Of a stretch of DNA of 52,125 nucleotides, positions 22,968 through 51,151 are shown piece by piece (within the stretch, counting starts at the first letter, position 1; each line of letters starts with the position of its first letter). The position numbers and the translations under genes were made by a program. The notes beneath the pieces are model-generated. The model ran no database searches. It saw only the letters and a program-made list of their open reading frames with translations, and was not told the DNA's origin. This stretch comes from a virus (Duplodnaviria; Caudoviricetes), in the IMG/VR virus record IMGVR_UViG_3300025642_000006, positions 1-52,125 of that record; one strand, written 5' to 3'.

Positions 22968-23645
22968 ATGCGAAACTTGATATACATTGGAATGCTTTGC
23001 ATTATTGGTACGGCAATGGCCGCTACTGATGCAACAGTGTTTACTAGCGTACAAATAGATGACTTGTTAATAGATGACTCGTTGATCATTCCGGTATCTA
23101 CGTCAGCTCCGGCAAGCTCTGTATCTGCTACAGGTACTGTGACTGCTGCTGCTGCCGTTGCATTGGCAAGTGGAGAGACGGTTACGATTAACGACCAAAC
23201 CTATACGTTTACGACTAATACGCTGAGCGCTGCGAATCAAATTAAAATAGTCTCAGCTCCAGTAGGGGCTGCAGGCCACACTAACTCGGTTGCTATGACG
23301 AACTTGTTTCTAGCAGTAACCGTTGGTGGTACTAATAATCCTACCCTGTATTATAGTACGACGGTAAAGCCAGCTAATGTTGCGATTACAAAGGAAAGTG
23401 TAAGCGTCATTAAGGTTGCCTCCTCGTCCGGCTATCATGGTACGATTGGTAATGCGTTGCCACTTCTAGCGACACCAGTTGCTATAGAAGATGGAACGAA
23501 TCTGACTGTTAGCGGTTCTGGAACCTTGATTAGTGGAACCGATGGAACGGTTGGCGATGCTGGAACGATAGTACTGTATAGCACGGGCTTGTACTTTACT
23601 ATTCAGGACTCTACTGCTGGCGACGCAGTATGGACTACTAAATAG
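22968..23645 (+). CDS. Signal-peptide-bearing virion-module protein (head fibre/decoration-like)
   Basis: MRNLIYIGMLCIIGTAMA-A signal peptide; ATGTVT...GETVTINDQTYTF beta domain. Confidence 0.7.
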   Translation: MRNLIYIGMLCIIGTAMAATDATVFTSVQIDDLLIDDSLIIPVSTSAPASSVSATGTVTAAAAVALASGETVTINDQTYTFTTNTLSAANQIKIVSAPVGAAGHTNSVAMTNLFLAVTVGGTNNPTLYYSTTVKPANVAITKESVSVIKVASSSGYHGTIGNALPLLATPVAIEDGTNLTVSGSGTLISGTDGTVGDAGTIVLYSTGLYFTIQDSTAGDAVWTTK

Positions 23646-23654
23646 GATGTAATT

Positions 23655-24008
23655 GTGATTCATACATATAAGTTGTATGAAAGGGTTCGAAGGGAGTTCG
23701 GCACACAGGCCGACTCCCAACCCTTTAGTGATGCCTTTTTCTCGGCACTATTAAGCATCTCGAATGATTTGGATAACAAAGCATTTGTTGAGATGGTTGC
23801 TCCAGAAACAATGGAAGTAAACATAGATATAGACGAGAAGTATTACAGCGCGATTTATAGAGGCTTAAAGTACTATATCAATAATGGGCCTCAGTGGAAT
23901 GTAGAGCAGAAGGGCGATTTGAGGGCTGAATACTTTATGGAACTGCACAGAGCGCAGTCTATGTATTACGCTGATAATGCACCCTCTCCTTATGATCTAT
24001 CTGATTAA
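23655..24008 (+). CDS. Head-tail adaptor-like protein
   Basis: 117-aa helical protein at the adaptor position. Confidence 0.5.
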   Translation: MIHTYKLYERVRREFGTQADSQPFSDAFFSALLSISNDLDNKAFVEMVAPETMEVNIDIDEKYYSAIYRGLKYYINNGPQWNVEQKGDLRAEYFMELHRAQSMYYADNAPSPYDLSD

Positions 24009-24027
24009 CCCATGTTAGGGGCATGAA

Positions 24028-26532: not shown

Positions 26533-26553
26533 CAACAAACAAGGGAGAACGGG

Positions 26554-27312: not shown

Positions 27313-28232
27313 GTGATTCTGGATTTCAGTCAACTGGGCAAGACCTAAGCATTCCTTGGAGAGGGGATTCTGAGGAGGACTTGTCGATTCCAGAGCCTTC
27401 TATCAGTAACATTGTTATTGAAGAGGTAGGTCCAAGCGCATCTCGCCAAGAGCCAGAACCAGATGTTGATGATTCAATACTGCTAGAACGCAGAGATGAC
27501 TCAGAGAACGACGATGGTTCTTATCTAGATCAGGGCTATGAGGCTCCATACGAGATCATGGGCGTAGATGACTACGATATGGAAGACGAATACTTCTCGA
27601 TGCCTGACGAGCTTCCAGACGAAGAAGACGATATACTGGTTGATGATATAGATGCTCCAGATGCAGAAGAAGTTGTTGTTGACGATGCAGAGATGTTTGA
27701 GCCTGATGATGCTGAAGCAGCCCCGCCGGGAGCAGTTGTTCCAGAAGAAGACGACGAGCCATCTATGGATGATGAAGAGTCCGACTACGAGGATTTTCCG
27801 ATAGAGCCCGAAGAGATTGATAACGAAGTGGACGTAGAATCCGTAGAGAGCCCTACAGAAGACGAGGCCGTTGTTGTTTCGGACTCAGAACCTGCTGAAG
27901 AAGTAGACGAGGAAGATGATGCAGATATAGAGACCGTAGAGGGAGAGGATTACTCTGCCATAGACATTGAGCATAGACGCAGGGATCAGGATGTTACCGG
28001 AGTTCAGGATGAGCTTCCAGAAGAAGATGCGGAGGGCTCGTCGTTCAGCGGGGTTTATTGGTTCAAGGGGACGCGGTATGAGCTTTCTGGGACGGCCAAG
28101 GCGTATTGGTATCACAGCGAGGCAGCCAACGCTGGCTACTGGAGCGACGGCCCGATGCCTAGCCCGATGCCGGACATGCAATACTGGAGGGCAACGGCAG
28201 AATGCAACGCTGTAGAATATATTTCGTGCTGA
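27309..28232 (+). CDS. Hyper-acidic disordered protein with a small aromatic C-terminal domain
   Basis: ~240 aa dominated by D/E/P/V, then GVYWFKGTRY...YWYH...YWSDGP. Confidence 0.75.
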   Translation: MSDSGFQSTGQDLSIPWRGDSEEDLSIPEPSISNIVIEEVGPSASRQEPEPDVDDSILLERRDDSENDDGSYLDQGYEAPYEIMGVDDYDMEDEYFSMPDELPDEEDDILVDDIDAPDAEEVVVDDAEMFEPDDAEAAPPGAVVPEEDDEPSMDDEESDYEDFPIEPEEIDNEVDVESVESPTEDEAVVVSDSEPAEEVDEEDDADIETVEGEDYSAIDIEHRRRDQDVTGVQDELPEEDAEGSSFSGVYWFKGTRYELSGTAKAYWYHSEAANAGYWSDGPMPSPMPDMQYWRATAECNAVEYISC

Positions 28233-30118
28233 TTGCGCTGGCCCTGCTTCCAACGCTGGCAAGCGCCGAGGGCTGGACGGCTGCGGCGTGGGATTTCGAG
28301 CATACTTGGTTCGCAAGCAACGCGCTTGTTACAAGGCCGATGTACGGGTACAGCGTTGAGGACGTAATCACCCAGACAAGTTTCACGAACTCAATCCCCA
28401 GGCTCGTGACGAAGGGCTATACGTTTCGGGGATGGTCGCAATCAGAAATGGACCCGACGACGAGCGGCGTTGTCTCGGTGTGTTACACGAATGTTTACAC
28501 GAACAACCTGCACCCGTTCGATTGCAGGATTACGACCCGCGCCTATTCAACAAACTTTATTTACGCAACAAACGCTTATGTGTTCGGGTCGGTCACGGGA
28601 GGCGTGATTACCGTGCTGCACCGAACTGAAACCGGGATGTACGCAACGAACATCCTGATGCAGCTTGACACGCTTCGGGATTATGAAATGTACATGGCTA
28701 TCTGGGAGCGAGCAAGGGCCACAAAGAACCAGTCGGTTATAAATGCAGCGCTCTATCTAAAGTGGTCAAGTGGGCTATACAGGCTGAGAAAGGTAATGAG
28801 TTGGATCGGGTATTATTGTGCTTACTTCCTAGATGCAAGCTGGTCGTCGTCGACAGCATCTAACAATTTTGATTTTAGCTCATATTTCGCGAGCGAAACA
28901 AACTTCCCAATCTATGGCGGCGAATATGTCGGGTATAATTATGATATTCCAGCATGGAATACGACTAACCTTGCCGTTTCTATTGGCGCACCGTCGAATC
29001 TTTATGGGTCAATATGGATTTATTCGGCAAATGTTAATAAGCACAAAGCGCCGTCCGGGGAGGAGTACGGAAGAGCGGTCACGTCTGAGGTAAATATAAT
29101 CAAATATCCGGGAGTTGTTTATTTAAACGATCCGAATTTAATTATCACAAACATTGCCTACAGGTACGACGGGACAACGACAAACGTTTCTGGAACAAAC
29201 GGCCAGCTTGTGTCCTTTATTACGGCAAACACAAACTATATCATAGAGGGGTTTACCGAGTGGGACTATGGCTACAGGTATGTCACGTCAACACTGAGTA
29301 GGATGGTGCTTGTGAAGGATACCCCTGCGTGGAGTACGAACGGGACGCTTAAAAATTACGAATACAGCGAAGGCCCGCCGGACTCACAATATGACAGCTT
29401 CAAAAGTTTATTTGACGAGTCGGACCACGGGAACACATCGTACTGGGGCTCGTCATCGTCGGTAGGCACCTATGATGTATATTGTAAGAAGGATGTTTAT
29501 CCACATCATGATGACTTTTTCGGAAGTACGCCGTTTGGTGCATGCGCCCGCGCACTGGTTACGGAAAATAAAATAATTCATACGTCGTCGTATTCCCTAA
29601 CGAATAGCACGTTCGTGGGGTATGATGTAGACTTTTATATAGCCATGAAAATGCCAAGATATGTAACCAGCTCAGTGTCGTGTTTTATAACGACCGAGGC
29701 CACGCCGACCGGTCTTAGCTATGCCACCATTTCAAGCCTTCCCCTTCCTATCTCTGCTGAGCAGGCGGTCTACGAAACGGAAGCATATCGAGGATTTATA
29801 GGATCAAGCTCGGTTCTGGCAACAGGGACGGTGGCCTATTCCGAAATGATATATGGGATAAACATATTATCAACGCTGGTGTCAGACGGAGATATAAGCA
29901 TGTCAATGATGGTCGGGTATAATCCCTACCAAACAAACGACATTGATATAACAAAGTTTTCATACGAGGCGCTCCCGTCTGGTACAAAATCGCCATACAC
30001 GGATAATGCCGGAGACATCGGGCCGTGGTGGTGGGCTATATTCGGAAGAACGCGCCCGGAGTACACCCCTTACGTCATCCGCAACTACGCAGTAACCAAC
30101 GGATTCAAGTATTATTAA
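28202..30118 (+). CDS. Signal-peptide-bearing tail-module protein, Tyr/Thr/Asn-rich
   Basis: MQRCRIYFVLIALALLPTLASA-E signal peptide; 638 aa. Confidence 0.75.
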   Translation: MQRCRIYFVLIALALLPTLASAEGWTAAAWDFEHTWFASNALVTRPMYGYSVEDVITQTSFTNSIPRLVTKGYTFRGWSQSEMDPTTSGVVSVCYTNVYTNNLHPFDCRITTRAYSTNFIYATNAYVFGSVTGGVITVLHRTETGMYATNILMQLDTLRDYEMYMAIWERARATKNQSVINAALYLKWSSGLYRLRKVMSWIGYYCAYFLDASWSSSTASNNFDFSSYFASETNFPIYGGEYVGYNYDIPAWNTTNLAVSIGAPSNLYGSIWIYSANVNKHKAPSGEEYGRAVTSEVNIIKYPGVVYLNDPNLIITNIAYRYDGTTTNVSGTNGQLVSFITANTNYIIEGFTEWDYGYRYVTSTLSRMVLVKDTPAWSTNGTLKNYEYSEGPPDSQYDSFKSLFDESDHGNTSYWGSSSSVGTYDVYCKKDVYPHHDDFFGSTPFGACARALVTENKIIHTSSYSLTNSTFVGYDVDFYIAMKMPRYVTSSVSCFITTEATPTGLSYATISSLPLPISAEQAVYETEAYRGFIGSSSVLATGTVAYSEMIYGINILSTLVSDGDISMSMMVGYNPYQTNDIDITKFSYEALPSGTKSPYTDNAGDIGPWWWAIFGRTRPEYTPYVIRNYAVTNGFKYY

Positions 30119-39386: not shown

Positions 39387-42300
39387 ATGAGGAAGATAAT
39401 CAGCATAGCACTCTTTCTGATACTTGGAGCAATGGCACAGGGCTTTGTACCAAGCACCAGCACGGGAACATTCAGCCCAAGTACATCAGTAGGAGATTGG
39501 GATGCCTTTGCATGGGATTGGTCAGGTTATGACGACCAGCAAATAGAGGCAACCTTCGTTGCCGCATACACCTCAACAGGCCAGGTGACCTTTCGGCTGT
39601 CATATCCACTTCGCGGAGAGTGGTACCTTACCGTTAACAATAGTATCCTGAGTGCCGCATCCTTAAATAGCTTCCTTTCAGTAATGAACGTAGCTAGAAC
39701 AAACATACCTCCAGTAAAGAACTACTATGCAGAGTTTCTATATACCGAAGATGGAGAGACTAGAACCCTAGCAAAGGGACGTGTTAACGTATCATGGAGC
39801 TTATATCAGGGTACCAATGAAGCATCCTTCGTTCCGGCAAGCATTACTTATTCAATTACCAATAGTTATACCATATTAGGCATATCGAACTATGTGGCAA
39901 AAGTCGGGGATGAAATGACCGGCAATCTGATTATGTCCAATAATGCTGCCATAGTCTTTCGCAATGGTGGCAGAATTGAAGGTATTGGATACAGCGGGGC
40001 AGGCACAACAAACGTAATTATTGATGCTGACGGAAACGTAGGTATTAAAACAACGTCTCTCACAAAGGAACTCACCGTAAATGGTGATGTAATCGCTAAT
40101 TCTTATTATGGAAATGCTGCAACTCTTACTAACTATACCGAATCAGATGCAATATTTGTGGAATCAGTGGCGGGTGGTATTACCACGAACGATACGGCAA
40201 ACTGGGATACAGCCTATGGGTGGGAAAATCATGCTACATCAGGATATGCAAGCGTAAGCTATGCTGACGGCCTCGCTAGCGGCCTTTCGGTAGTAGATGT
40301 GGCTATCTATGCGGCGGCAAGCAATGCGGCCTCTACAGGGGCTTTAAACGCTGTTGCGGCGACTGTTGGAGTGGCATCAAACACTCTTAATACTAGAATC
40401 GCTAGTTTGAGTAATGGGCTAATATCCGCGAATGCTCAAATTACCTCTACCTCAGGAACCGTTTATACACTAGGCATTCAACTAGCTGCAGCCAGTAATA
40501 AGGCTAATACGGCCTATGGATGGGGAAATCCTGCCACGAATACCTATACTGCAAAGTCCTATGTAGACGGAATATCAAACGGATTGCACACTATAGACCT
40601 ATCTCTACAGTCACAAATAAACACCCTGTCAGGCACCGGAGATGTAGCGGAACTAGATAGTAGAATATATATTCTTGAGGGACGCACTTCTACCTATAAC
40701 AAAGCCTCTACAGATGCTATCGCCGCTACGAACTGGATTGGAACCAATAGCGCAAGAATTACAACTATTGAAGTATTAGGATCGAATACAGCATCTTCCC
40801 TTACTGCGTATAAGACCATTGCGCTAACCAACAACCAAACAAACATCACGCTAAAGGGAACCTTTGTTGGGAATGGTGCTGGATTAACCAATATCCCATT
40901 TGCGTCAGCAACAAATGTTGCAACGTGGTCTACCTTCCCTGCTACTGCTAATATAAATGCAGGAGAAAACCACCTTACGAATGTAGACAGTATAGCAGCA
41001 TCCGGCCTTATTACCGCTAGCTCTATGCATATATCTACCGCTACCATTGAGGAGTTCAGCGGAGATGACATAAACTTTAATGGCGGTGTTCTATATGATC
41101 TTATCGTAAGCAATGCTACTTACTATGGGAATGGCGCAGGGATTACCAACATACCCATTCAGACATCCGTTAGTGTGGGATACGGGTTAGAAGGTACTGG
41201 ATCAACAGGTGACCTTCTTAGGATAGATAGTGATGCCGTAGTAACGAACGAGCTAGACCCTGTGTTTAGCACATGGATCGGCACAAATACATACGTTCAG
41301 TCTGAAACGGACCCCTATGCGTTATACCTTAATGGAACGAAATCCATGACAGGAAACATTCTTCTTGGAACCAATTATGGCGCAGCTCCATCAGTAGCCT
41401 TTTCAAGAGGAGCGGGAGTATTGGCAAGAGATTATCTAAGTTCTACGGGAAGTGTTCTTCGATATAATGGCGTAGCAATCGTTAGCAATGGTGGAATAGT
41501 AGTGCCACTCGTTGGAGATGTAACCGGAACGAGTGCATCAAATGTACTTGGGTATTCTGTGGTAAAATTGAGCAATGTTGATGTGGATAGCCTTTCGTCG
41601 GAGTTCATGCGCTCAGGCTCTATCAATAGATTCGATAAGTTGTTAGTGGCAGATGAAGCAGCACTAGGTAGCGAGATCGTTAGCAATGGAACATTCGCTA
41701 GCGGAGAAGCATATTGGGCATTTAGTGGCGACGCCTACATTGCCGGCAGTCGTGCGCAAGTCGTAGATGGCCTTAGCGGAGTGATTGTATATACCAATTA
41801 TACCATAGTATCTAATGCTTACTACAAACTCAGCTTTGAAAAGGGTGGCACAAATGGAAGCCTCACGGCCTATCTTGGCACAGATAGTTATACTCCTAGC
41901 AGCAGTTCTTATGGAACTATGGTTAAATACTTTGAAAGTGATGGAGTTGGAAGTCAGCTAACCTTTGCTATTAGCGCAAATGCAGGAGTAACAGCATACC
42001 AATATGTAGATAGTGTTTCATTGAAGCGCGTAACAAACGGAGAGCTACGGGTAGTCGGGAATCTCTTTATTGATGGAAAACTACATGGAGATGGGAGTAG
42101 TCTGACTGGCATTTCGGTAGCAAATAGCATAACCAACAATCAAACCGGCGTCACCCTGAGCGGCACATTTGCGGGAACGCACACGGGCAGCGGTTCAGGT
42201 CTTACTTCTCTCCCGGCCTCTGTAGTCACTAACAACGCGCCAAGCGTCACCCTTGGTGGAACCTTTGCTGGCACTCATACCGGTAGCGGATCGGGGCTTA

Positions 42301-42869
42301 CGTCGGTTCCTTCCTTTGTAGTAACAAACGGCCAGACTAACGTCACGCTTGGCGGCAACTTCTCGGGGACATATACAGGAACTTATAATGGAGCCGTAGG
42401 AATATCAATGTACGGAAATGCGCTTCCGACAAACGACACCGCAGCTCAAAATTACGCGTTCTCCGATACTGCTCCGTTTATAAACTTAAACCCATTGTGC
42501 AAGCCAGTGTGGACTAATCGAACAATTGTCTTCACCAACAGTACTGACCCGGTCCTATTATTTACAAGCATTCCAATCGTTTCAGGAAATTCATATCGGG
42601 TGTCTGGAGTTGTTACTGGATCAACTCTTTATTTTAGCCAAATGAGCATTGGAGGAATAACAAACTATCTATCAGGAAATAATACGAATTACACCGGACT
42701 TTATGCAGCAATCAATACGAACTCTCTGCGCATGGTATTCTATATTGCTGCCGATCCTCTGGCATTTCCACCGGCTTATCTTACAAACCTATCGTTTTCG
42801 AGCTATTCATCGAATGACATAGGTCGTCTATGGAACGATCACGGAACCATGAAGTTGATGGGCTATTAA
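39387..42869 (+). CDS. Tail fibre-like protein with signal peptide
   Basis: MRKIISIALFLILGAMA-Q; YVAKVGDEMTGNL, GNVGI, GNGAGLTNI fibre motifs; CBM-like EIVSNGTF...VDSVSLK; ~32-aa repeats near 42090-42390. Confidence 0.8.
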   Translation: MRKIISIALFLILGAMAQGFVPSTSTGTFSPSTSVGDWDAFAWDWSGYDDQQIEATFVAAYTSTGQVTFRLSYPLRGEWYLTVNNSILSAASLNSFLSVMNVARTNIPPVKNYYAEFLYTEDGETRTLAKGRVNVSWSLYQGTNEASFVPASITYSITNSYTILGISNYVAKVGDEMTGNLIMSNNAAIVFRNGGRIEGIGYSGAGTTNVIIDADGNVGIKTTSLTKELTVNGDVIANSYYGNAATLTNYTESDAIFVESVAGGITTNDTANWDTAYGWENHATSGYASVSYADGLASGLSVVDVAIYAAASNAASTGALNAVAATVGVASNTLNTRIASLSNGLISANAQITSTSGTVYTLGIQLAAASNKANTAYGWGNPATNTYTAKSYVDGISNGLHTIDLSLQSQINTLSGTGDVAELDSRIYILEGRTSTYNKASTDAIAATNWIGTNSARITTIEVLGSNTASSLTAYKTIALTNNQTNITLKGTFVGNGAGLTNIPFASATNVATWSTFPATANINAGENHLTNVDSIAASGLITASSMHISTATIEEFSGDDINFNGGVLYDLIVSNATYYGNGAGITNIPIQTSVSVGYGLEGTGSTGDLLRIDSDAVVTNELDPVFSTWIGTNTYVQSETDPYALYLNGTKSMTGNILLGTNYGAAPSVAFSRGAGVLARDYLSSTGSVLRYNGVAIVSNGGIVVPLVGDVTGTSASNVLGYSVVKLSNVDVDSLSSEFMRSGSINRFDKLLVADEAALGSEIVSNGTFASGEAYWAFSGDAYIAGSRAQVVDGLSGVIVYTNYTIVSNAYYKLSFEKGGTNGSLTAYLGTDSYTPSSSSYGTMVKYFESDGVGSQLTFAISANAGVTAYQYVDSVSLKRVTNGELRVVGNLFIDGKLHGDGSSLTGISVANSITNNQTGVTLSGTFAGTHTGSGSGLTSLPASVVTNNAPSVTLGGTFAGTHTGSGSGLTSVPSFVVTNGQTNVTLGGNFSGTYTGTYNGAVGISMYGNALPTNDTAAQNYAFSDTAPFINLNPLCKPVWTNRTIVFTNSTDPVLLFTSIPIVSGNSYRVSGVVTGSTLYFSQMSIGGITNYLSGNNTNYTGLYAAINTNSLRMVFYIAADPLAFPPAYLTNLSFSSYSSNDIGRLWNDHGTMKLMGY

Positions 42870-42881
42870 AGGAGATTTAAG

Positions 42882-44462
42882 ATGCGTAGCATAGTTCTAA
42901 TAGCATTATTTATAACAGCCTCAGCACTAGCTCAGGACACCGTGCTAAACAACGTCTCAATCATAGGCGGTTCAGGGGTAGAATCCGATCCCATATTCAG
43001 CGCGTGGGTAGAAACAGGCTCAGTAACCGCTGTAGAGTCCGACCCGGTATTCACTAACTGGCTAGACGATACCTTCCCCGCTACCCTCCTTGCCGCCACC
43101 TCGCTGCTCACCAGCAACCTCACCTCCGAGGCATCCGCCCGGATCGAAGCAGATGCCGCAATAACCGGTCGCATTGACGTGGTCGAGACGACCGCGCTGA
43201 CCTCCGTGAGGTGCTCCGGCGGCTGGTACAACCCGGACTGGTTCACATTGGCCATGCGCCCGTATCCTTACACGGTAATCAGCGAGGGCGAGACCAACGC
43301 GGTCTACAGCGTGTACGTGTCCAGCGTGGTGGTGGATACCGCCGCAGGGCAACTGCTGGAGCCGTCAATCTTGCGCATGAGTACTTTCACTGGGGCCGTT
43401 GAATATGCGGCGCTTAGCAACTGCACGATTGCCACCGTGACCGTGACAAATTACCTGTGGGGCGAGGAGCAGGTTACGGATTATGACGCCGTGATATTTG
43501 ACGAAGACCTTGAAGCGGGCACCGTGGCAGAAATCACAGCCACGCTCAACAGCTTCGCCCGATCCACCAGCCTGACCTACGCCGTGAGCAACCTCTACAC
43601 CTACAATCAATATCAGGGCGATGTGCCCGGATCACTCCGCGCCTACATCAACACGTCCTTGCAGGCTCGCGCAAGTGTGAGCAATCGCACGATGAACCTC
43701 TATGAGGACGGCTGGCCCACGACATGGACCCGCAATACGAACCTTTGGTGCGCTGGTGTGGATTTGACGTGCGCCTCGCCCTATAATTCGTTTGGGAACC
43801 CCGCCGAAAAGGGCGGAGTGGCCATCACCCGGCAGCATATCGCCTTTGCGGCTCATTATCCAATCACCAACGGGGCATCGTTGCTGTTTGTGGACGGGAC
43901 CAACGGCCTGTATTGGCGAGCGATGACGGACAGCCGGACCATCCCCGGCACGGATTGCCGAATCGGCCTGCTGGCCTCTGCGCTACCTGCAACCATCACC
44001 CCCGCGCAGCTCATGCAGGCATCCGACAACGGGCGGTTTCTTGGGGCGCTCAACATGGACGGCGGTATAGGAATCCGCTCAATCCACCTCAAGGCGGTAG
44101 AGAGCAACGACCCCAAAACCTTTGCAAAGTGGGCCTGCTCCGCCCGCATCACCGAGGCCGATACGACAGGCGGCATGATGGGACGCGACATTGCCGCCAT
44201 CGGCAGGACGGCGGACAGCCCTTATTCAGCCGCAGTCATTGTTGGTGATTCGGGGCAACCAACCTTTGTTGTGATCGGAACGAACACGGTGCTCTATTCG
44301 ACGTTTCATAGCTCGGGCGGAGGCCCAAATATCGGCGTACTTGCCCCGCAGATCGAAACGGCCATTGCCGCAATGGGAAACACTATCTACACCAATCTGA
44401 ACTATATCAATCTGGATTCCTGGCGTGATTACAACATGCCGCCCGTGATGGGAGGAGAATAA
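42882..44462 (+). CDS. Signal-peptide fibre-associated protein with a trypsin-like serine protease domain
   Basis: MRSIVLIALFITASALA-Q; ESDP repeats; GVAITRQHIAFAAHY, TDCRIG, GDSGQP give an H-D-S triad. Confidence 0.78.
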   Translation: MRSIVLIALFITASALAQDTVLNNVSIIGGSGVESDPIFSAWVETGSVTAVESDPVFTNWLDDTFPATLLAATSLLTSNLTSEASARIEADAAITGRIDVVETTALTSVRCSGGWYNPDWFTLAMRPYPYTVISEGETNAVYSVYVSSVVVDTAAGQLLEPSILRMSTFTGAVEYAALSNCTIATVTVTNYLWGEEQVTDYDAVIFDEDLEAGTVAEITATLNSFARSTSLTYAVSNLYTYNQYQGDVPGSLRAYINTSLQARASVSNRTMNLYEDGWPTTWTRNTNLWCAGVDLTCASPYNSFGNPAEKGGVAITRQHIAFAAHYPITNGASLLFVDGTNGLYWRAMTDSRTIPGTDCRIGLLASALPATITPAQLMQASDNGRFLGALNMDGGIGIRSIHLKAVESNDPKTFAKWACSARITEADTTGGMMGRDIAAIGRTADSPYSAAVIVGDSGQPTFVVIGTNTVLYSTFHSSGGGPNIGVLAPQIETAIAAMGNTIYTNLNYINLDSWRDYNMPPVMGGE

Positions 44463-44463
44463 C

Positions 44464-47400
44464 ATGACCCGTATCATATCCGCACTGTTGATCCTCCTCG
44501 CGGCATCCGCCCACGCGCAAGTGATCGGCGTCCTATCCAACCTGCTCGCCACGGCGGCCACCCCCGCTGAACTCACCGAGACGGTGCTGGAACTCAACTC
44601 CATTGTTATCAACGCTGGCGATATGCACGACCTGCGCGTCGGCGACGGAGTGACCCCTGGTGGCGTCCGAGTGTGGAACACCGACGCGCTTACCGAGCCG
44701 CCTCGCTCCTACCCGCACGGATTCGCGATGAACGGAAACACGATCTCGCTGAATGGGTCCTACACCATCGGCGCGGAAGGCCCACTTTGGTATCTCCGGT
44801 GCAATGGGTCGAACGTAATGTCCGTGCTGGCTAACTCCGGCTCGCTGGGCACGACCATCAGCGAGACCTACGCGGGGAGCAACATTCTGCGCGTGGTGGT
44901 GGCTGTCGAAGACGAGGCGCTTGATCCTCTCGTTGAATACTCGCAAAGCCTCATCACCCCGGCATGGACCGATTGCGTGTATACCGTGACCCGCCCGACC
45001 ACCAACCTTGTTCAGATCGACATTGAGATTCCAGAGGACGCCACCAACGGATATTTCAGGATCACCGCGCTCTCCGGATTCCGCGTGCGCTTTGGCATCC
45101 CGCTGGAAGCCCCAAGCGCGAGCGTAAGCGGTGGGCTGACCCTTGGTGGCACAACGAACGTCATCACCGACGATGGGACCAACCTAACCCGTAACGGCGT
45201 ACTGATTGCAGGCACAGGCGGAACAGGCAGCGGCTTCCCGGCCACCAACCACATGAACGCGGCTGGATACAACCTGACCAATCTCAACATCGCACAGGGC
45301 ACCACGGCCAACTTTGGGACGCTAAACGCGACCACGGTCAACGGGACGATCTTCAACGGGCGTGATATGACCTTGTCGGGCAACCTGAATATTGCCAGCA
45401 ATCTGAATTATACCATCAACCAGCAAACGACGGTCTACCTTGGGACCAACTACATCACCAACATCAACGTAACGGCACGGTGGACCACAAACAACACGTA
45501 CCTCTACACTAACGTCGTCGAGACGCATACGGCGTGGTACACCAACTACGTCACCTATGACACCTACATCAACAACGGAGGGTATTTCAACGCCTCAAAC
45601 GCGAATTGGGTAGCCTTCCCCGGCCTGTATATCGAGGGGACGAACACCGCGGCATCCGGCGTATGGGATTTCACTGACGCGATCGTATTGGGGCTAGGCG
45701 CAGGCACCGTCACCAACGCAGGGTACGGCCTCATAATGACCAACAACGTGATCGCCATTGATACAAGCATCGTCGCCACCGGCACACCGCTCTACGTCTA
45801 CAGCGAGACGGACCCAGCATTTGCTGCATCATCTAACTTGTTCTTACAGGCTGAAACTGATCCAGCCTTCACGAATTGGCTCGGTACCAACACCTACATC
45901 AAAACCGAATCCGACCCCGTCTGGGCATCCGAAAAGTCAAGCTATGCCACCGGCACCCCGCTCTACGTCTACAGCGAGACGGACCCGGCATTCACCAACT
46001 GGGTTGAGACGACCTTCACCAATGCCGTGACCAGCTTAGTCGCACAGGTGTCCGTTGCAGGCGTGTCCAGCGTAGAGGGGATCACAGGCGCGGTGCTAAT
46101 CAGCGGCGCCACCAACTCGGGCCAGACCATCTATCTGCCTGCATCGAGCGGCGCAACACAGACCAACACCATCACAGACACCATGACACAGCCGCTAAGG
46201 CTCTCTGGTGGGTTCTACGTTGGGACTGACACCAACCTAATCACCAACGTGGTTGAAGGTGCTGAGGGCTCAGGCACCCTAACAAACATCGTAATCAACG
46301 GGACCATGGGAACGACTACAGGTGCTCTGGCTTATGTTACCGTTGCGGGGGGAGGTGGCGGAATATCTGGGATAATAACTGATGCTACCTACACAAACGA
46401 CATGAGCGTTATGCAGACCGTAACGAATACGTACACTCTCACACCTGTGATCGAAAAAATTGTTTTGCGTGCAGAAACAACCAACCGCCCATTTAGCAAA
46501 TCAGTTATTGTTGATCTTTTTCACGGTGCAACGATAGCACCGGAGGCCCGTCAGCTCCGCGAGTCGTTTACATTCGAGGCTGTTGATTTGCAAACAAACG
46601 TAACATCTGGAGACTCAGAAATTGGCATTATACAGGCTCAGCAGTTGTATGACGACGATTTGTGCTATCTATCTGATAATGCGTCAACATCGGAGTATGT
46701 GCGGATTTTGTCGTCGGTTGATAGTGGGAGCTGGAATACGGACTATGATAGCACCGAAGCAGACATCTATTCCCTAGCTGTCTACGATGGCAAACTGTAT
46801 GCTGGTAGTGCTACTGGCGGCAAGGTTTTTGTGTATGATGGAACAACATGGTCAGAGTCTTATGATAGCACAGAAGAACGCATCTATTCCCTAGCTGTCT
46901 ACGATGGCAAACTGTATGCTGGTAGTGGTCCTGGCGGCAAGGTTTTTGTGTATGATGGAACAACATGGTCAGAGTCTTATGATAGCACAGAAGGATTTAT
47001 TCGTTCCCTAGCTGTATACGGTGGCAAACTGTATGCTGGTAGTGCTACTGGCGGCAAGGTTTATGTGTATGATGGAACAACATGGTCAGAGTCTTATGAT
47101 AGCACAGAAGAACGCATCTATTCCCTAGCTGTCTACGATGGCAAACTGTATGCGGGTAGTGGTACTGGCGGCAAGGTTTTTGTGTATGATGGAACAACAT
47201 GGTCAGAGTCTTATGATAGCACAGAAGGATACATCTATTCCCTAGCTGTCTACGGTGGCAAACTGTATGCGGGTAGTGGTACTGGCGGCAAGGTTTTTGT
47301 GTATGATGGCTCAACATGGTCAGAGTCTTATGATAGCACAGAAGGATACATCTTGTCCCTAGCTGTCTACGATGGCAAACTGTATGCTGGTAGTGGTACT

Positions 47401-47721
47401 GGCGGCAAGGTTTATGTGTATGATGGAACAACATGGTCAGAGTCTTATGATAGCACAGAAGAACGCATCTATTCCCTAGCTGTCTACGGTGGCAAACTGT
47501 ATGCGGGTAGTGGTGCTGGCGGAATAATCTTTAGATACACCTCAACAGGGCTCACGACCCTAGTCAATCCGTTAGCAAACTCATACGCGGCAGGATCAAC
47601 CATGTACCGATGCGCCGAGATGGGAGGATGGGTAGCCACGACGAACTGCACGCTTAGGGTCCAGACCGTTTCTGAGACATTAGACTATGATGTGATATCA
47701 ATATTTAAGGAGGTTCAATGA
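44464..47721 (+). CDS. Tail fibre/receptor-binding protein with signal peptide, ETDP repeats and a 7-bladed beta-propeller
   Basis: MTRIISALLILLAASAHA-Q; LRVGDGVT motif; 7x39-aa repeats. Confidence 0.82.
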   Translation: MTRIISALLILLAASAHAQVIGVLSNLLATAATPAELTETVLELNSIVINAGDMHDLRVGDGVTPGGVRVWNTDALTEPPRSYPHGFAMNGNTISLNGSYTIGAEGPLWYLRCNGSNVMSVLANSGSLGTTISETYAGSNILRVVVAVEDEALDPLVEYSQSLITPAWTDCVYTVTRPTTNLVQIDIEIPEDATNGYFRITALSGFRVRFGIPLEAPSASVSGGLTLGGTTNVITDDGTNLTRNGVLIAGTGGTGSGFPATNHMNAAGYNLTNLNIAQGTTANFGTLNATTVNGTIFNGRDMTLSGNLNIASNLNYTINQQTTVYLGTNYITNINVTARWTTNNTYLYTNVVETHTAWYTNYVTYDTYINNGGYFNASNANWVAFPGLYIEGTNTAASGVWDFTDAIVLGLGAGTVTNAGYGLIMTNNVIAIDTSIVATGTPLYVYSETDPAFAASSNLFLQAETDPAFTNWLGTNTYIKTESDPVWASEKSSYATGTPLYVYSETDPAFTNWVETTFTNAVTSLVAQVSVAGVSSVEGITGAVLISGATNSGQTIYLPASSGATQTNTITDTMTQPLRLSGGFYVGTDTNLITNVVEGAEGSGTLTNIVINGTMGTTTGALAYVTVAGGGGGISGIITDATYTNDMSVMQTVTNTYTLTPVIEKIVLRAETTNRPFSKSVIVDLFHGATIAPEARQLRESFTFEAVDLQTNVTSGDSEIGIIQAQQLYDDDLCYLSDNASTSEYVRILSSVDSGSWNTDYDSTEADIYSLAVYDGKLYAGSATGGKVFVYDGTTWSESYDSTEERIYSLAVYDGKLYAGSGPGGKVFVYDGTTWSESYDSTEGFIRSLAVYGGKLYAGSATGGKVYVYDGTTWSESYDSTEERIYSLAVYDGKLYAGSGTGGKVFVYDGTTWSESYDSTEGYIYSLAVYGGKLYAGSGTGGKVFVYDGSTWSESYDSTEGYILSLAVYDGKLYAGSGTGGKVYVYDGTTWSESYDSTEERIYSLAVYGGKLYAGSGAGGIIFRYTSTGLTTLVNPLANSYAAGSTMYRCAEMGGWVATTNCTLRVQTVSETLDYDVISIFKEVQ
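45775..45995 (+). repeat. Intragenic ETDP-type repeats
   Basis: ATGTPLYVYSETDPAF occurs twice (near-identical DNA), with QAETDPAF and KTESDPVW between. Confidence 0.8.
46732..47540 (+). repeat. Seven tandem 117-bp (39-aa) repeats
   Basis: tatgatagca recurs at 46744, 46861, 46978, 47095, 47212, 47329, 47446. Confidence 0.95.
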
Positions 47722-48512
47722 TGCGAAAACTATTATTATATGCAATTTGTTTAATGTGCTCAACGGCCATTTATGCTGGTTACTACTATACACAGGATGA
47801 GGAGGGTAATGTCACGCGCACAAAAGGCGACACCCCCTACCCGGAAGGGGCTATATGGCAGACCGATGTGAACTACCAGACCCCCGTTGACGATATCAAG
47901 GTTGATGATGGTAAAATCGTGAGGCGATCAGCGGAGGAAATAAAGAAACGGTTGCAATACGAAGTACTTTTCCGAGTTGATGGGAAACTGCATACAGAGT
48001 TGCTCGCGAAGAAGTCGCTTGATCCGCTTTTGGAATACGAGGTCATACTGGGTGGCAAGCGGAAATACCATATCGAGTTACCAACCGAACAGACCGGAAC
48101 GACTACCGATCCGGAAACCGGCGAAGAGTTGCCCGTAATGTCCGAAGTGCCAATTAAATACTGCAAACTGGTTGACGGCGAACTGGTAGCCATGACAGAG
48201 GCTGAGCGTACGGCGCGGGATGAGTACGATGCGCAGGTTGCAGAGGCAGCGCGTCTAGCCAGCCCCGTGCCCGACGTGACACCGTTACAGTTTCGCTTGA
48301 TCCTGTTATCGCAGGGGATCACCGAGGCGCAGATTGACGCGTTGCTTGAGACCATCGAAGACCCAACAGAAAAGGCAGTTGCCAAATTAACATGGAGCAA
48401 AGCCAGCGTGTTCAAACGGTCGCATCCGATGATTGCTTCAATGGGCGCGACGATGGGTTTCACCGCCTTGCAAATGGACGAGCTATTCAGAGCCGCAGCG
48501 GAGATTGAATAA
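47718..48512 (+). CDS. Fibre-associated/assembly chaperone-like protein with signal peptide
   Basis: MMRKLLLYAICLMCSTAIYA-G; C-terminal VTPLQFRL.L...W..A..F.R.HP.I..MG..MG....QMDELFRAA motif typical of genes after fibres. Confidence 0.7.
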   Translation: MMRKLLLYAICLMCSTAIYAGYYYTQDEEGNVTRTKGDTPYPEGAIWQTDVNYQTPVDDIKVDDGKIVRRSAEEIKKRLQYEVLFRVDGKLHTELLAKKSLDPLLEYEVILGGKRKYHIELPTEQTGTTTDPETGEELPVMSEVPIKYCKLVDGELVAMTEAERTARDEYDAQVAEAARLASPVPDVTPLQFRLILLSQGITEAQIDALLETIEDPTEKAVAKLTWSKASVFKRSHPMIASMGATMGFTALQMDELFRAAAEIE

Positions 48513-48763: not shown

Positions 48764-48766
48764 CAT

Positions 48767-49156: not shown

Positions 49157-49160
49157 TGCA

Positions 49161-49559: not shown

Positions 49560-49981
49560 AAACAACCCTACGTGACCTGATTGAGTGTGCCGTTATTATA
49601 TGCGGCACCATCACAATCATCCTTGCCGTATCCTGCATCTCCCTGACCGAAGAGCAGCGCACCGACATTGAGAAAATCATTTCAGCCGTTCCTATTGCTA
49701 CGGCTACCCCATTGCCCCAACCGACACCCGTAACAATAACTAATACAGTTCCTGTAAAACACCCGGATGTTTCTGTTGGGGCATCCCTTGCCGGAGTTGC
49801 GCCGTTCGCGGAGGCGCACGGGATACCCGTTGCGTCTACTGGACGTGGCGACATGCTAGACATGCGCGGCATGTCTAATGCCGACGCACTCATTGCCGAG
49901 TGGTGCGAGCTTTCAGGTGGTGCGGCGTGTCCTGCACTAACCGACGCAGAGCCAGATGGGATATTTCACCAATGCCATTAA
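49556..49981 (+). CDS. Putative lipoprotein
   Basis: Hydrophobic N-terminus ending LAVS-C, then a Pro/Thr-rich linker. Confidence 0.5.
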   Translation: MKTTLRDLIECAVIICGTITIILAVSCISLTEEQRTDIEKIISAVPIATATPLPQPTPVTITNTVPVKHPDVSVGASLAGVAPFAEAHGIPVASTGRGDMLDMRGMSNADALIAEWCELSGGAACPALTDAEPDGIFHQCH

Positions 49982-50241
49982 CGCCACTACAGTTCGAGTT
50001 CAACTGTGTCAACGGACACGCTGATCGTCTCAGGCGTGAGCTTGATAGTGTGGAGCATTCACTGCTGCATATCAAGGCGCAGTTGGCAGTGGAGGGGATG
50101 AGAGCAACCGATATTCTGGAGGTGCATAATGTGGCGACTGATATTTGCAATGTGGAGAATACGACTGAGACACCCGATCAGGTGGCTACGGATGAGAAAG
50201 TTATGGCGGGAGATACGGGTAGAGTCGAGGCCGAATTATGA
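49972..50241 (+). CDS. Hypothetical protein
   Basis: Overlapping ends with both neighbours. Confidence 0.5.
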   Translation: MPLTPLQFEFNCVNGHADRLRRELDSVEHSLLHIKAQLAVEGMRATDILEVHNVATDICNVENTTETPDQVATDEKVMAGDTGRVEAEL

Positions 50242-50771
50242 CCGCAATGTGGACAGGTAGCGGATACTCTAAGGCAATGACCAATGAGGAGCAACGCGCT
50301 CTTGGGTTGCCAACGTACAAGCGATTTTACCTGTTCAAGCACGAGCCAGATAATCGTGAGACGCTCTGTTACGACGGGGCTATGTTCCGTGTTCCTGATA
50401 ATTGCATTCACGATTTCGGATCAGGTCTTGAGTACACGCAGGGCATTCCGATTCTACGCCGGTGGTTCAGTAGAGACTCATATCCTCGCTCGGTTGTTTT
50501 GCATGACGCAGCATACAGCGGCACGTCAAATGACGAACTTTACGATATGGCGCCAAACCTTGCACAAGTTGGGACTCGGCATCAGTTGTGGATAAGCGTA
50601 GACAACGGCGACACATGGGCGGCCACTCCTGTATCAAGAGAGTTGGCTGACGAGTTGCTTCGTATCGGCATCCTAGCAGAGGGTGGACCCCGTTGGGTGG
50701 CATGGACGTACCATAAAGCTGTAAGATTATTTGGTAGATTTGTTTGGGATGATGGGATAGTAGAAGACTAG
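50238..50771 (+). CDS. DUF1353-family protein
   Basis: VP.N...DFGS, VVLHDAAY, SRELADELL, AVRLFG motifs. Confidence 0.72.
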   Translation: MTAMWTGSGYSKAMTNEEQRALGLPTYKRFYLFKHEPDNRETLCYDGAMFRVPDNCIHDFGSGLEYTQGIPILRRWFSRDSYPRSVVLHDAAYSGTSNDELYDMAPNLAQVGTRHQLWISVDNGDTWAATPVSRELADELLRIGILAEGGPRWVAWTYHKAVRLFGRFVWDDGIVED

Positions 50772-50794
50772 GCGAAAGCCTGAAAGGAGTAGAG

Positions 50795-51151
50795 ATGAAA
50801 AAGATTATTGCTGGATTGTTTGGGGTGATTATTGCTGTTTCTGTATACGCCGCTCAAGATGGTGGACTGTATAATAAAGCAGTAGGTTATCCGGGGTCAT
50901 TGCTGACTACCAAGGTAGGGGAATGGGGCGCTAAGAGCCTTACCGTAATCAATAGTGGCACTAATGTAGTATACTGCAATGTAAATGGGACGGTTGCAGA
51001 AGTTGCTGTGAACGCTGTTTCTGGCACCGGATCAGTAGCGATTGCGGTTTCTGGTAGCTATACATGGGAAGGCAACAACATTGGTAGCATCGCCATTGGG
51101 TGTGTGACTGGGTATGCGTCTACCGTGACGCTTCAATTCCATACGATGTAA
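50795..51151 (+). CDS. Small signal-peptide beta-sandwich protein
   Basis: MKKIIAGLFGVIIAVSVYA-A; L.VINSGTNVVY motif; AAGGAG RBS. Confidence 0.7.
   Translation: MKKIIAGLFGVIIAVSVYAAQDGGLYNKAVGYPGSLLTTKVGEWGAKSLTVINSGTNVVYCNVNGTVAEVAVNAVSGTGSVAIAVSGSYTWEGNNIGSIAIGCVTGYASTVTLQFHTM

What the first reader, a model, noticed from the sequence alone, without database searches (positions are those of the whole stretch)
22968..51151. At least seven virion-module proteins, including all fibre-like proteins, carry Sec signal peptides
Seen: classical n-h-c signal peptides ending in AxA-like sites at 22968, 28202, 39387, 42882, 44464, 47718 and 50795 (plus a lipoprotein-like start at 49556). Portal, capsid, adaptor, hairpin and ejection proteins lack them. 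Known: tailed-phage fibres normally fold and attach in the cytoplasm without export. Inference: a two-compartment assembly pathway in which fibres and decorations are exported to the periplasm (for folding, host modification, or to mask receptors) and join particles only at inner-membrane breakdown or egress. I know of no characterised example.
Basis: partly seen in the sequence, partly recalled or inferred. Interest (0 to 1): 0.82.

Follow-up and report, generated by a model that had tools for sequence, protein, structure and literature searches.

The report
Phage tail fibres carrying export signals
An uncultured 52-kb short-tailed phage puts ordinary bacterial secretion signals on all of its fibre-type host-recognition proteins and on several small late proteins, which suggests that these parts mature outside the cytoplasm where the particle is built, a route not described for tailed phages.

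Summary
All seven named starts have a short basic tip, an uncharged hydrophobic core and a small-x-small cut site. Among 52 window genes they are the only ones whose hydrophobic core begins within the first 10 residues.

The leaders are conserved by character, not by sequence:
- 4 of 4 members of the 28202 family keep one.
- 128 of 141 representatives sharing the N-terminal domain of the 39387 protein keep one, and that domain starts right at the predicted cut.

That domain folds confidently. Its best structural matches are fibre-anchoring domains of phage baseplates and necks.

A second, unrelated virus (L006/L007) carries the same fibre module with a different N-terminus that has its own leader.

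So genuine export signals sit on virion-appendage-type proteins. Export itself, and whether the exported pool ends up on particles, are untested. No trained predictor was available, the host is unknown, and I found no reason for export (no sequon excess, no conserved cysteine pairs).

Five literature searches found no description of this. The scan has noted the same pattern before on other, unrelated phage DNA.

The parts
22968..23645 (+). 225-aa protein directly after the major capsid gene. Leader is about 18-19 aa (A-M-A cut site). Possible head decoration or fibre.
   Evidence: AGGAG lies upstream. Pfam gives only a weak CBM_5_12 match below cut-off. Two unrelated relatives (L001 6217 and 6617; L006 3860) also place leader-bearing small ORFs right after their capsid gene.
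28202..30118 (+). 638-aa conserved tail-module protein with a 22-aa leader (A-S-A|E). Fold unknown.
   Evidence: Homologues P0002, P0003 and the L002/L005 ORF (27-39% identity) all keep a hydrophobic N-terminus, a G/E-W-T/S-x-x-A-W start and an invariant C-terminal N-G-F-K-Y-Y. The AlphaFold model failed, with pLDDT 26.
39387..42869 (+). 1160-aa fibre-type protein with a 17-aa leader (A-M-A|Q).
   Evidence: Residues 226-298 are 48-58% identical to features annotated tail fiber or virion structural protein in 15 cyanophage/Limnohabitans phage records.
39444..39794 (+). N-terminal beta-sandwich domain of the 39387 protein (residues about 20-136). It is an anchor-type fold and starts at the predicted cut.
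   Evidence: AlphaFold on a 104-row alignment gave pLDDT 81, with strands from 23 to 136. The top 11 VIA-align rows are all phage virion parts, led by TP901-1 BppU N-domain at Z 11.7, rmsd 2.8 over 117 residues. Generic Ig folds begin at Z 7.7. Foldseek on PDB and BFVD agrees. The family has 141 representatives.
42882..44462 (+). 526-aa fibre-type protein with a 17-aa leader (A-L-A|Q) and E-S-D-P-x-F repeats. The C-terminal part is serine-protease-like.
   Evidence: The L006/L007 homologue is 92% identical from residue 80 on, but has a different first 44 residues with their own leader. The ESM Atlas places the C-terminal part beside serine-protease-named clusters at score 0.99, which is a lead only.
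44464..47721 (+). 1085-aa fibre-type protein with an 18-aa leader (A-H-A|Q), fibre repeats and a C-terminal run of about 39-aa blades.
   Evidence: Pfam Kelch_FKB95 matches below cut-off. The protein is about 98% identical at DNA level in L006/L007, which have fewer repeat units.
47718..48512 (+). 264-aa accessory protein overlapping the end of the fibre gene, with a 20-aa leader (I-Y-A|G).
   Evidence: The C-terminal 110 aa match phrog_6034 and phrog_14311, both of unknown function. They are also 35% identical to a leaderless 135-aa ORF directly after the T7-like tail fibre gene of Mesorhizobium phage Lo5R7ANS.
49556..49981 (+). 141-aa protein with an N-terminal hydrophobic segment ending A-V-S-C. 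Possible lipoprotein or spanin-like lysis protein.
   Evidence: It fails my charge test. No family hit in Pfam, PHROGs or NCBIfam. The lipobox rule is recalled, not tested by a tool.
50795..51151 (+). 118-aa beta-rich small protein with a 19-aa leader (V-Y-A|A).
   Evidence: No family hit. An identical N-terminus is present in L006.

Best explanation
The seven N-termini are genuine Sec-type, signal-peptidase-I-cleaved leaders on the phage's peripheral virion proteins. These are three large fibre or tailspike-type proteins (39387, 42882, 44464), a conserved tail-module protein (28202), a fibre-adjacent accessory protein (47718) and two small beta-rich proteins (22968 after the capsid gene, and 50795).

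What the sequence shows:
- the leader features
- their conservation across homologues
- a virion-anchor-type fold that starts at the cut site

Inferred: the proteins cross the inner membrane, lose the leader and fold or trimerise in the periplasm of a diderm host. Heads, portal, adaptor and ejection proteins assemble in the cytoplasm.

Further inferred: the two pools meet when the holin breaches the inner membrane. At that moment periplasmic fibres are still highly concentrated inside the outer membrane. My own order-of-magnitude estimate is tens of micromolar, enough for binding within about a second. The appendages then dock through their N-terminal anchor domains just before or at release.
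For: 1. Leader anatomy holds at 7 of 7 starts, and nothing comparable occurs at the other 45 listed genes.

2. The leaders are conserved by character. The 28202 family keeps one in 4 of 4 members at 27-39% identity. A full HMMER search with residues 1-200 of the 39387 protein gave 146 hits. Of these, 141 share the N-terminal domain, and 128 of the 141 pass the strict leader test. The other 13 are mostly truncated or marginal.

3. In the 104-row alignment the residue before the first domain residue is A in 51 rows, G in 26 and Q in 9. The median leader length is 19.5 aa. So the mature domain begins at a signal-peptidase-type site.

4. That domain is a virion anchor by fold. The model has pLDDT 81. 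The top 11 VIA-align rows are all phage baseplate, neck or connector parts with Z from 11.7 to 7.7. Non-phage Ig folds reach Z 7.7 at most. BFVD hits include BppU-domain, baseplate and tailspike proteins.

5. A constant N-terminus with a variable C-terminus (140-1600 aa) is the tail-fibre pattern.

6. L006/L007 carry a different capsid type (SU10_MCP). They share window 43212-52125 at about 98% identity. The join falls inside the 42882 homologue, whose own N-terminus again starts with a leader. This fits a particle-specific anchor with an exchangeable receptor part.

7. No leaderless fibre candidate is left in the window. The remaining large late proteins are a 45% Ser/Thr low-complexity protein, an acidic protein and two internal-type proteins.

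8. The accessory ORF after the fibre gene also has a leader, whereas its homologue after a T7-like fibre gene has none.

9. No internal starts backed by a Shine-Dalgarno site would make leaderless isoforms.
Against: - No trained signal-peptide predictor, proteomics or export assay was available. Export and cleavage are inferred from sequence only.
- No tailed phage is known to assemble this way. The time window between holin triggering and burst is short.
- I found no motive for export. Sequons are at composition level. Mature cysteine counts are 0, 6, 1, 6, 5, 1 and 2, and cysteines are not conserved in the 28202 family.
- The host is unknown, so a diderm envelope is assumed from the short leaders.
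- Some 28202-family leaders are weak. P0003 has a short core and the L002/L005 copy has a Glu in the core.
- The fold of the 28202 protein could not be predicted.
That they are phage genes rests on the window, on L006/L007 and on contig sizes of up to 54 kb.
- Later checks recorded by this scan on analogous cases gave low odds to the bold reading. These are AI notes.
Confidence: 0.4

Rival explanations
1. The leaders are real, but the proteins have two fates. The virion copies stay in the cytoplasm, because they escape Sec late in infection or remain uncleaved. The exported fraction works in the envelope of the infected cell. There it could bind or destroy the receptor from within, which would give superinfection exclusion and keep progeny from sticking to debris, or it could be released as free enzyme.
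For: The leader evidence is the same as above. One protein has a protease-like tip, and one family member matches a phage depolymerase C-domain (1 of 59). These are enzymes that could act on envelope polymers. This reading avoids the topological problem. Leader-bearing non-virion genes inside tail operons are known, for example lambda Lom (passage read in PMC12309495).
Against: No Shine-Dalgarno-backed internal starts exist for leaderless isoforms. A cytoplasmic, uncleaved pool would carry a hydrophobic helix directly in front of the anchor domain. All seven proteins, including the accessory and the small ones, would need the same leaky behaviour. The function is speculative.
Confidence: 0.22
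2. The N-terminal hydrophobic segments are not export signals. They would be structural or assembly elements. Examples are a helix buried in the tail hub, a tether that gathers fibres at the cytoplasmic face of the membrane, or a propeptide removed by a phage protease.
For: No predictor or experiment confirms export. The 28202 family shows some sequence conservation inside the segment (a Y-x-V-L-I-like run) and weak cores in two members. Capsid propeptides are sometimes mis-scored as signal peptides (passage in PMC10367356).
Against: A basic tip, an uncharged core and A or G at -1 immediately before a conserved domain are what Sec and signal peptidase need. A packing helix does not need them. 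Across 104 aligned family members the segment's sequence is free while these features hold. In the model the helix (residues 2-15) precedes the sandwich and is not part of it. The cell's SRP/Sec system would probably engage such N-termini anyway (inference).
Confidence: 0.15
3. The proteins are exported but are not virion parts. They would be fibre-like adhesins or enzymes displayed on or in the envelope of the infected cell, as Bdellovibrio displays its phage-fibre-like MAT proteins. The virion would use something else for adsorption.
For: The architecture is the same as MAT fibres: a signal peptide, a conserved domain of about 130 aa, then a variable fibre (passages read in PMC10769870). The family context could not be read outside the window and L006/L007.
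Against: The seven genes take 23% of a genome that has no integrase. They sit in the late operon where fibres belong. The N-domain's nearest folds are virion anchors. The MAT N-domain is reported to have no PDB homologue, so it probably differs. The particle-specific N-terminal swap in L006/L007 would be pointless for a cell-surface protein. No other fibre candidate exists.
Confidence: 0.13
4. The pattern is chance or a gene-calling artefact.
For: Hydrophobic N-termini are common among spurious ORFs in my loose scan.
Against: The seven are long ORFs with Shine-Dalgarno sites. Homologues keep the feature. The strict test picks them out of 52 genes.
Confidence: 0.02

Closest known systems
BppU-type N-terminal fibre-anchor domains of phage baseplates and necks (TP901-1 ORF48/BppU, 80alpha baseplate, Bas63 connector, Sf14 neck)
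   Same: The same beta-sandwich fold sits at the very N-terminus of a fibre or receptor-binding protein and is followed by variable distal parts. Matches: Z 11.7, 11.0, 10.5 and 10.4, and 3uh8 at Z 9.8.
   Different: Sequence identity is only 5-16%. The solved examples begin with the domain itself. Here a 17-aa Sec-type leader precedes it. That the solved ones lack leaders is my knowledge, apart from the chain ranges starting at residue 1.
Bdellovibrio bacteriovorus MAT fibres (Caulton et al. 2024, PMC10769870; passages read)
   Same: A signal peptide, then an invariant beta-rich domain of about 130 aa, then a trimeric phage-tail-fibre-like shaft with swappable tips. These proteins are exported and surface-located.
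   Different: MATs are chromosomal genes of a predatory bacterium and anchor to its own surface. 13 of 21 carry an S74 domain, whereas 0 of 59 scanned members here matched it. The MAT N-domain is reported to have no PDB homologue, while this one matches phage anchors. Homology between the two N-domains could not be tested, because no MAT N-domain sequence was at hand.
Leader-bearing non-virion genes in phage late operons (lambda Lom; signal-peptide genes of Porphyromonas gingivalis phages, Matrishin et al. 2023, PMC10367356; passages read)
   Same: Phage genes with host-type signal peptides lie among structural genes. In the Porphyromonas phages some expose an N-terminal Gln, as 3 of the 7 do here.
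   Different: Those are small proteins of unknown or outer-membrane function. They are not fibre-type proteins with an anchor domain, and the paper does not mention tail parts.
Filamentous phages (Inoviridae)
   Same: Virion proteins are exported through the host secretion machinery and the particle is assembled at the envelope. This comes from the abstract start of PMC4823517 seen in the listing; the rest is recalled.
   Different: Filamentous phages have no capsid, portal or terminase, and the whole particle is extruded. Here only the peripheral parts of a tailed phage carry leaders.

Membership tests
Sec / signal peptidase I (type I) signal peptide | Net positive n-region in the first few residues | tested here: met
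   7 of 7, with net +1 or +2.
Sec / signal peptidase I (type I) signal peptide | Uncharged hydrophobic h-region of about 7-15 residues starting near the N-terminus | tested here: met
   7 of 7. The core starts at residue 3-6 and the best 10-residue Kyte-Doolittle mean is 2.7-3.3.
Sec / signal peptidase I (type I) signal peptide | Small neutral residues at -1 and -3, and no Pro at +1 | tested here: met
   A at -1 in 7 of 7. At -3 the residue is A, V or I, and for 22968 it is A with the cut after residue 18. In the 39387 family, A or G precedes the domain in 77 of 104 rows.
Sec / signal peptidase I (type I) signal peptide | Positive call by a trained predictor (SignalP, DeepTMHMM) | not testable with these tools
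   No such predictor is offered here or installed in the script box.
Sec / signal peptidase I (type I) signal peptide | Export and cleavage shown experimentally | not testable with these tools
   Needs PhoA fusions or N-terminal proteomics.
Lipoprotein (signal peptidase II) signal, for 49556 | Lipobox ending in Cys after a hydrophobic stretch, with a basic n-region | tested here: inconclusive
   A-V-S-C occurs at residues 24-27 after an uncharged stretch, but the n-region net charge is 0. The lipobox rule is recalled.
Tailed-phage tail fibre or tailspike with an N-terminal particle-binding domain | N-terminal domain with a virion-anchor fold | tested here: met
   For 39387 only: model pLDDT 81, and the top 11 VIA rows are phage baseplate or neck parts, Z 11.7 to 7.7.
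Tailed-phage tail fibre or tailspike with an N-terminal particle-binding domain | Conserved N-terminus with variable distal part across relatives | tested here: met
   141 representatives of 85-1596 aa share only the first 150 or so residues. The N-terminal swap in L006/L007 shows the same for 42882.
Tailed-phage tail fibre or tailspike with an N-terminal particle-binding domain | Sequence similarity to annotated tail fibres | tested here: met
   A short motif only: residues 226-298 of 39387 match 15 records annotated tail fiber or virion structural protein. The 44464 body had no match.
Tailed-phage tail fibre or tailspike with an N-terminal particle-binding domain | Presence in purified particles | not testable with these tools
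   Uncultured phage. No proteome exists.
Tailed-phage tail fibre or tailspike with an N-terminal particle-binding domain | Cytoplasmic, leaderless synthesis, as in all characterised members | tested here: not met
   Leaders are present at all three fibre-type genes. This is the point of novelty. I therefore file it as a variant.
Bdellovibrio MAT fibre family | Signal peptide, then a conserved beta-rich N-domain of about 130 aa, then a variable fibre | tested here: met
   The architecture matches the description read in PMC10769870.
Bdellovibrio MAT fibre family | Homology of the N-domain to the MAT N-domain | not testable with these tools
   No MAT N-domain sequence or structure was available. 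The paper says it has no PDB homologue, whereas this domain has some.
Bdellovibrio MAT fibre family | Chromosomal gene of a predatory bacterium | tested here: not met
   The gene lies in a 52-kb circular virus record with terminase, portal and capsid genes.
Signal-peptide or SAR endolysins | A muralytic domain behind the leader | tested here: inconclusive
   None of the eight proteins matched a muralytic family in Pfam, PHROGs or NCBIfam. Remote homology is not excluded.

The most novel reading that the evidence does not exclude
A whole uncultured lineage of tailed phages, with at least 141 protein clusters sharing the leader-plus-anchor module, builds its particles in two compartments. Heads and tail cores form in the cytoplasm. 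The entire host-recognition apparatus is Sec-exported, cut by the host signal peptidase and pre-folded in the periplasm. That apparatus comprises fibres, a conserved hub-like protein, a fibre accessory protein and perhaps a head decoration. It snaps onto particles only when the holin opens the inner membrane. Until then the exported fibres could also mask or destroy receptors from inside.
Probability: 0.3. Interest if true: 0.9.

Novelty: new variant of a known kind. Interest (0 to 1): 0.62.

Why it matters
Textbook tailed-phage morphogenesis is entirely cytoplasmic. If fibres with a classical virion-anchor domain are routinely exported, three things follow. Particle completion would be coupled to lysis. 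Host Sec, signal peptidase and periplasmic folding factors would become phage dependency factors. And the infected cell's envelope would be exposed to receptor-binding proteins from within, which suggests a mechanism for exclusion and for avoiding debris.

Practically, annotation pipelines that treat 'signal peptide' as evidence against 'structural protein' would mis-sort such genes. Expressing these fibres for host-range work would need periplasmic routing.

The case is directly testable once a host is found. The leader-plus-anchor family also gives a sequence handle for finding cultivable examples.

Tried and rejected
N- or O-glycosylation as the motive for export. N-x-S/T, D/E-x-N-x-S/T and D-S/T-(A/I/L/V/M/T) counts equal composition-shuffled expectation in all seven proteins, with |z| up to 1.3 except in the Asn-poor 47718. 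Rejected.

Disulfide folding as the motive. Mature cysteine counts are mixed and cysteines are not conserved in the 28202 family. No support.

Leaderless isoforms from internal starts. None has a proper Shine-Dalgarno site.

28202 as an outer-membrane barrel or nozzle. The model was unusable, with pLDDT 26. The ESM Atlas gave only sub-threshold leads of 0.77. There were no PDB sequence hits. It is unrelated to the 39387 N-domain profile. Left open.

Sorting signals and known families. Pfam, PHROGs and NCBIfam gave nothing for T9SS, PEP-CTERM, S74, lysins or fibres. PDB sequence searches were empty.

Host identity.
- No tRNA genes and no integrase among the ten early proteins scanned.
- Two species-genome scans found nothing.
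- 3 of 7 cut sites expose Gln, as in the Bacteroidetes Q-rule (abstract of PMC5837995). But 37 of 49 starts have a Shine-Dalgarno-like piece (no shuffle control), which I recall Bacteroidota rarely use.
- The Atlas taxa hint at Verrucomicrobiota.
- Unresolved.

Context of the 141 family members. They were not retrievable. A profile word-search for longer relatives returned only the window's own protein.

Relatives in GenBank phages. None for the head module or the portal.

Complex prediction, the look-up of sequencing runs and read laying were not used. No pairing I could name would have changed my odds.

Supplementary files of the papers were closed. Supplementary Data 4 of PMC10367356, which lists the signal-peptide genes of the Porphyromonas phages, could bear on whether any is a tail part.
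Full report
WHAT THE WINDOW IS. The window is the whole record. A leftward arm holds replication-type genes, including a DnaB-like helicase, an HTH protein and a JAB protein. The rightward arm runs in this order:
- terminase large subunit (PHROG hits)
- portal (Pfam SU10_portal, E 7e-13)
- scaffold-like gene
- major capsid (weak Phage_capsid_4 and PHROG major-head hits)
- the region of the finding

No GenBank phage resembles the head module or the portal. Distant relatives exist only as metagenomic contigs: L001 at 38%, L002/L005 at 54%, L003 at 42% and L004 (portal identity).

THE OBSERVATION. Translations show that each of the seven named starts has the same anatomy. Each has one or two net positive charges in the first 2-5 residues and an uncharged hydrophobic run. 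Each then has a cut-site-like A-x-A, I-x-A or V-x-A, with leaders of 17-22 residues.

My loose heuristic over all 939 start candidates gives these seven scores of 5.2-6.4. The only other scores above 5 belong to short ORFs of 60-109 aa that lie inside or antisense to larger genes or in a non-coding gap.

A stricter test on 52 hand-listed genes passes 9. These are the seven plus two early ORFs whose hydrophobic stretch starts only at residue 19 or 26. 49556 has a hydrophobic segment ending A-V-S-C but a neutral tip. It is lipoprotein-like by a rule I recall, and it sits among small unannotated late genes that may be the lysis cassette.

The limit is that no trained predictor was available.

ARE THE LEADERS UNDER SELECTION? 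Three independent lines say yes.

First, the 28202 protein has three homologues at 27-39% identity: P0002, P0003 and the ORF in L002/L005. All begin with a hydrophobic N-terminus followed by the same G/E-W-T/S-x-x-A-W start, and all end in N-G-F-K-Y-Y. Two of these leaders are weak. One has a short core and one has a Glu in the core.

Second, a full HMMER search of 1.84 billion cluster representatives with residues 1-200 of the 39387 protein found 146 proteins at E of 1e-3 or better (55 at 1e-10 or better). I dropped five whose match was interior rather than N-terminal (P0094, P0110, P0131, P0139, P0145). Of the remaining 141, 128 pass the strict leader test. The 13 failures are N-terminally truncated calls, starts without a charged residue, or cores just under the threshold.

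In a 104-row alignment the leader sequences are essentially unalignable, yet the residue just before the first residue of the conserved domain is A in 51 rows, G in 26 and Q in 9. The median leader is 19.5 residues. A conserved domain that begins exactly at a signal-peptidase-type site, behind a segment conserved only in character, is the signature of a cleaved leader.

Third, two IMG/VR contigs from different samples (L006, L007) match window 43212-52125, continuing into 1-700, at about 98% identity. But their left 8 kb encodes a different virus with an SU10_MCP-type capsid. The junction falls inside the homologue of the 42882 gene. From residue 80 of the window protein (45 of theirs) the two are 92% identical. 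Before that they are unrelated, and each has its own leader.

ARE THEY VIRION PARTS? No proteome exists, so this is inference. The evidence for it:
- The proteins at 39387, 42882 and 44464 carry E-S/T-D-P-x-F and G-x-G-x-x-L-T repeats, which I recognise from tail fibres (recalled).
- Residues 226-298 of the 39387 protein are 48-58% identical to features annotated as tail fiber or virion structural protein in 15 cyanophage and Limnohabitans phage records.
- The 141-member family keeps only the first 150 or so residues, and its distal parts vary from nothing to about 1450 residues. Pfam recognises almost nothing in them: LRR_5 in 2, Collagen in 2 and Phage_depo_C in 1 of 59.
- AlphaFold on the 104-row alignment gives a confident model (pLDDT 81). 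It has a helix at 2-15, which is the leader, then a beta-sandwich from 23 to 136.
- With VIA-align the 11 best solved matches are all parts of phage particles. They are the TP901-1 baseplate protein BppU N-domain (Z 11.7, rmsd 2.8, 117 residues), Bas63 connector (11.0), 80alpha baseplate (10.5), NF5 baseplate (10.4, poor rmsd 9.5), Sf14 neck (10.4), TP901-1 ORF48 N-domain (9.8), then Douge, DT57C, T5, P74-26 and R4C parts. Unrelated Ig-like folds follow from Z 7.7 down.
- Foldseek against PDB and against predicted viral structures agrees. The latter hits include 'BppU domain protein', 'baseplate component' and 'tailspike protein'.
- The N-terminal swap in L006/L007 is what one expects if the N-terminus fits a particular particle and the rest recognises the shared host.
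- No leaderless fibre candidate remains. The other large late proteins are a 45% Ser/Thr low-complexity protein (24028), an acidic protein (27309) and two internal-type proteins with no cysteine at all (30199, 31759).
- In three unrelated head modules (window, L001, L006) the ORF right after the capsid gene also starts with such a segment. BLASTP finds no similarity among them.
- The 264-aa ORF that overlaps the end of the 44464 fibre gene has a leader too. Its C-terminal domain is 35% identical to a leaderless 135-aa ORF immediately after the T7-like tail fibre gene of Mesorhizobium phage Lo5R7ANS, whose fibre is also leaderless. Fibre and neighbour thus appear to have moved compartment together. 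The function of that neighbour family is unknown.

MECHANISM. Shown: leader-type N-termini conserved on fibre-type proteins, and an anchor-type fold that starts at the cut. Inferred: Sec export and cleavage, then periplasmic folding. Further inferred: docking onto cytoplasm-built particles when the inner membrane is breached. Tail fibres and tailspikes of classical phages can be added to particles in vitro (recalled). A few thousand trimers confined to the periplasm would be at tens of micromolar (my estimate), so docking within the seconds between holin triggering and burst is physically plausible. I give this chain 0.4.

Rivals:
- The exported pool has an envelope function while virion copies stay inside (0.22).
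- The segments are structural or assembly elements and not export signals (0.15).
- The proteins are exported but are not virion parts, like the MAT fibres of Bdellovibrio (0.13).
- Chance or artefact (0.02).

WHAT SPEAKS AGAINST IT, AND WHAT FAILED.
- I found no reason for export. The three sequon types tested are at composition level, which contradicts the companion note on this window. Cysteines are neither paired throughout nor conserved.
- No Shine-Dalgarno-backed internal start offers a leaderless isoform, which weakens the dual-fate rival but does not remove it.
- The 28202 fold could not be predicted.
- The host is unknown. Three of seven cut sites expose Gln, as in the Bacteroidetes Q-rule (abstract, PMC5837995). 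But most genes have Shine-Dalgarno-like sites (37 of 49, no control), which I recall that phylum rarely uses. Atlas neighbours of the protease-like tip hint at Verrucomicrobiota.

COMPARISON WITH WHAT IS KNOWN. By fold the anchor belongs with BppU-type N-domains. By architecture the closest described system is the Bdellovibrio MAT family: a signal peptide, an invariant beta-rich domain of about 130 aa, then a swappable fibre, located on the cell surface (passages read in PMC10769870). That family is chromosomal. Its N-domain is said to have no PDB homologue, and 13 of 21 members carry an S74 domain, which none of 59 scanned members here matched.

Signal-peptide genes in phage late regions are known for small non-virion proteins. 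Examples are lambda Lom (passage in PMC12309495) and five unknown genes of Porphyromonas phages that obey the Q-rule (passage in PMC10367356).

Five full-text searches, with passages read in PMC5723332, PMC3338817, PMC12309495 and PMC12633290, turned up no report of Sec leaders on tailed-phage fibres. Subscription-only papers and supplements were not searchable.

This scan has noted the same pattern on other phages, with eight follow-ups shown. None is a sequence relative of this window. Those are unchecked AI notes and I count them as leads only.

VERDICT. This is a new variant of a known kind: tail fibres with a classical anchor fold, but made as secretory precursors. Interest 0.62. The bold two-compartment reading gets 0.3 and would rate 0.9 if true.

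Noticed in passing
window 1-121 and 52005-52125: The two ends of the window are identical over exactly 121 bases, so the record is a circularly closed assembly of about 52,004 unique bases. L006 reads straight through the junction.
   Followed up: yes
L006 1-8076 and L007 1-8076 versus window 43212-52125: Two IMG/VR contigs carry the window's fibre-to-JAB module at about 98% identity, joined to an unrelated head module with an SU10_MCP-type capsid. This is a recent exchange of the host-recognition and late cassette between two different viruses.
   Followed up: partly
window 44464-47721 versus L006 9329-12181: The near-identical fibre gene in L006 is 135 codons shorter (950 versus 1085 aa). 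The difference lies in and just before the 117-bp blade repeats, so the repeat number varies between copies.
   Followed up: no
window 24028-26532: This 834-aa protein has a folded-looking N-terminus of about 200 aa. It is followed by about 560 residues of Ser/Thr/Gly/Arg low complexity (44.6% Ser+Thr overall) and a short C-terminal domain. The N-terminus is conserved in L002. The next gene matches Stealth_CR2 below Pfam's cut-off, at 35.5 versus 39.4 bits.
   Followed up: no
window 24028-26532, 30199-31743, 31759-39354: These three leaderless late proteins, 3,879 residues together, contain no cysteine at all. The leader-bearing proteins contain 21 in their mature parts.
   Followed up: no
window 48512-51820: Pfam, PHROGs and NCBIfam recognised no endolysin, holin or spanin anywhere in the late region. 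The only hits were a weak 'tail assembly chaperone' PHROG match for 50238 and a weak Peptidase_C58 match for 49161.
   Followed up: partly
window 43600-44462: The C-terminal part of the 42882 protein sits beside clusters named serine protease or trypsin-like in the ESM Atlas (score 0.99, 214 of 256 features). Their taxa are Uroviricota and Verrucomicrobiota. This is a lead only.
   Followed up: partly
window 30101-30118; P0002, P0003 and L005 9983-11881 C-termini: All four members of the 28202 family end in the same N-G-F-K-Y-Y, although the preceding 200 residues are barely alignable.
   Followed up: no
window 17541-17888; L001 970-1272; L002 482-808; L003 2311-2613: A conserved ORF of 100-115 aa sits between the terminase and portal genes in all four relatives. 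It matched no PHROG family.
   Followed up: no
window 39438, 42933, 44518: Three of the seven predicted cut sites expose an N-terminal Gln, and 9 of 104 aligned family members have Gln just before the domain start. This recalls the Bacteroidetes Q-rule, yet most genes here have Shine-Dalgarno-like sites.
   Followed up: partly
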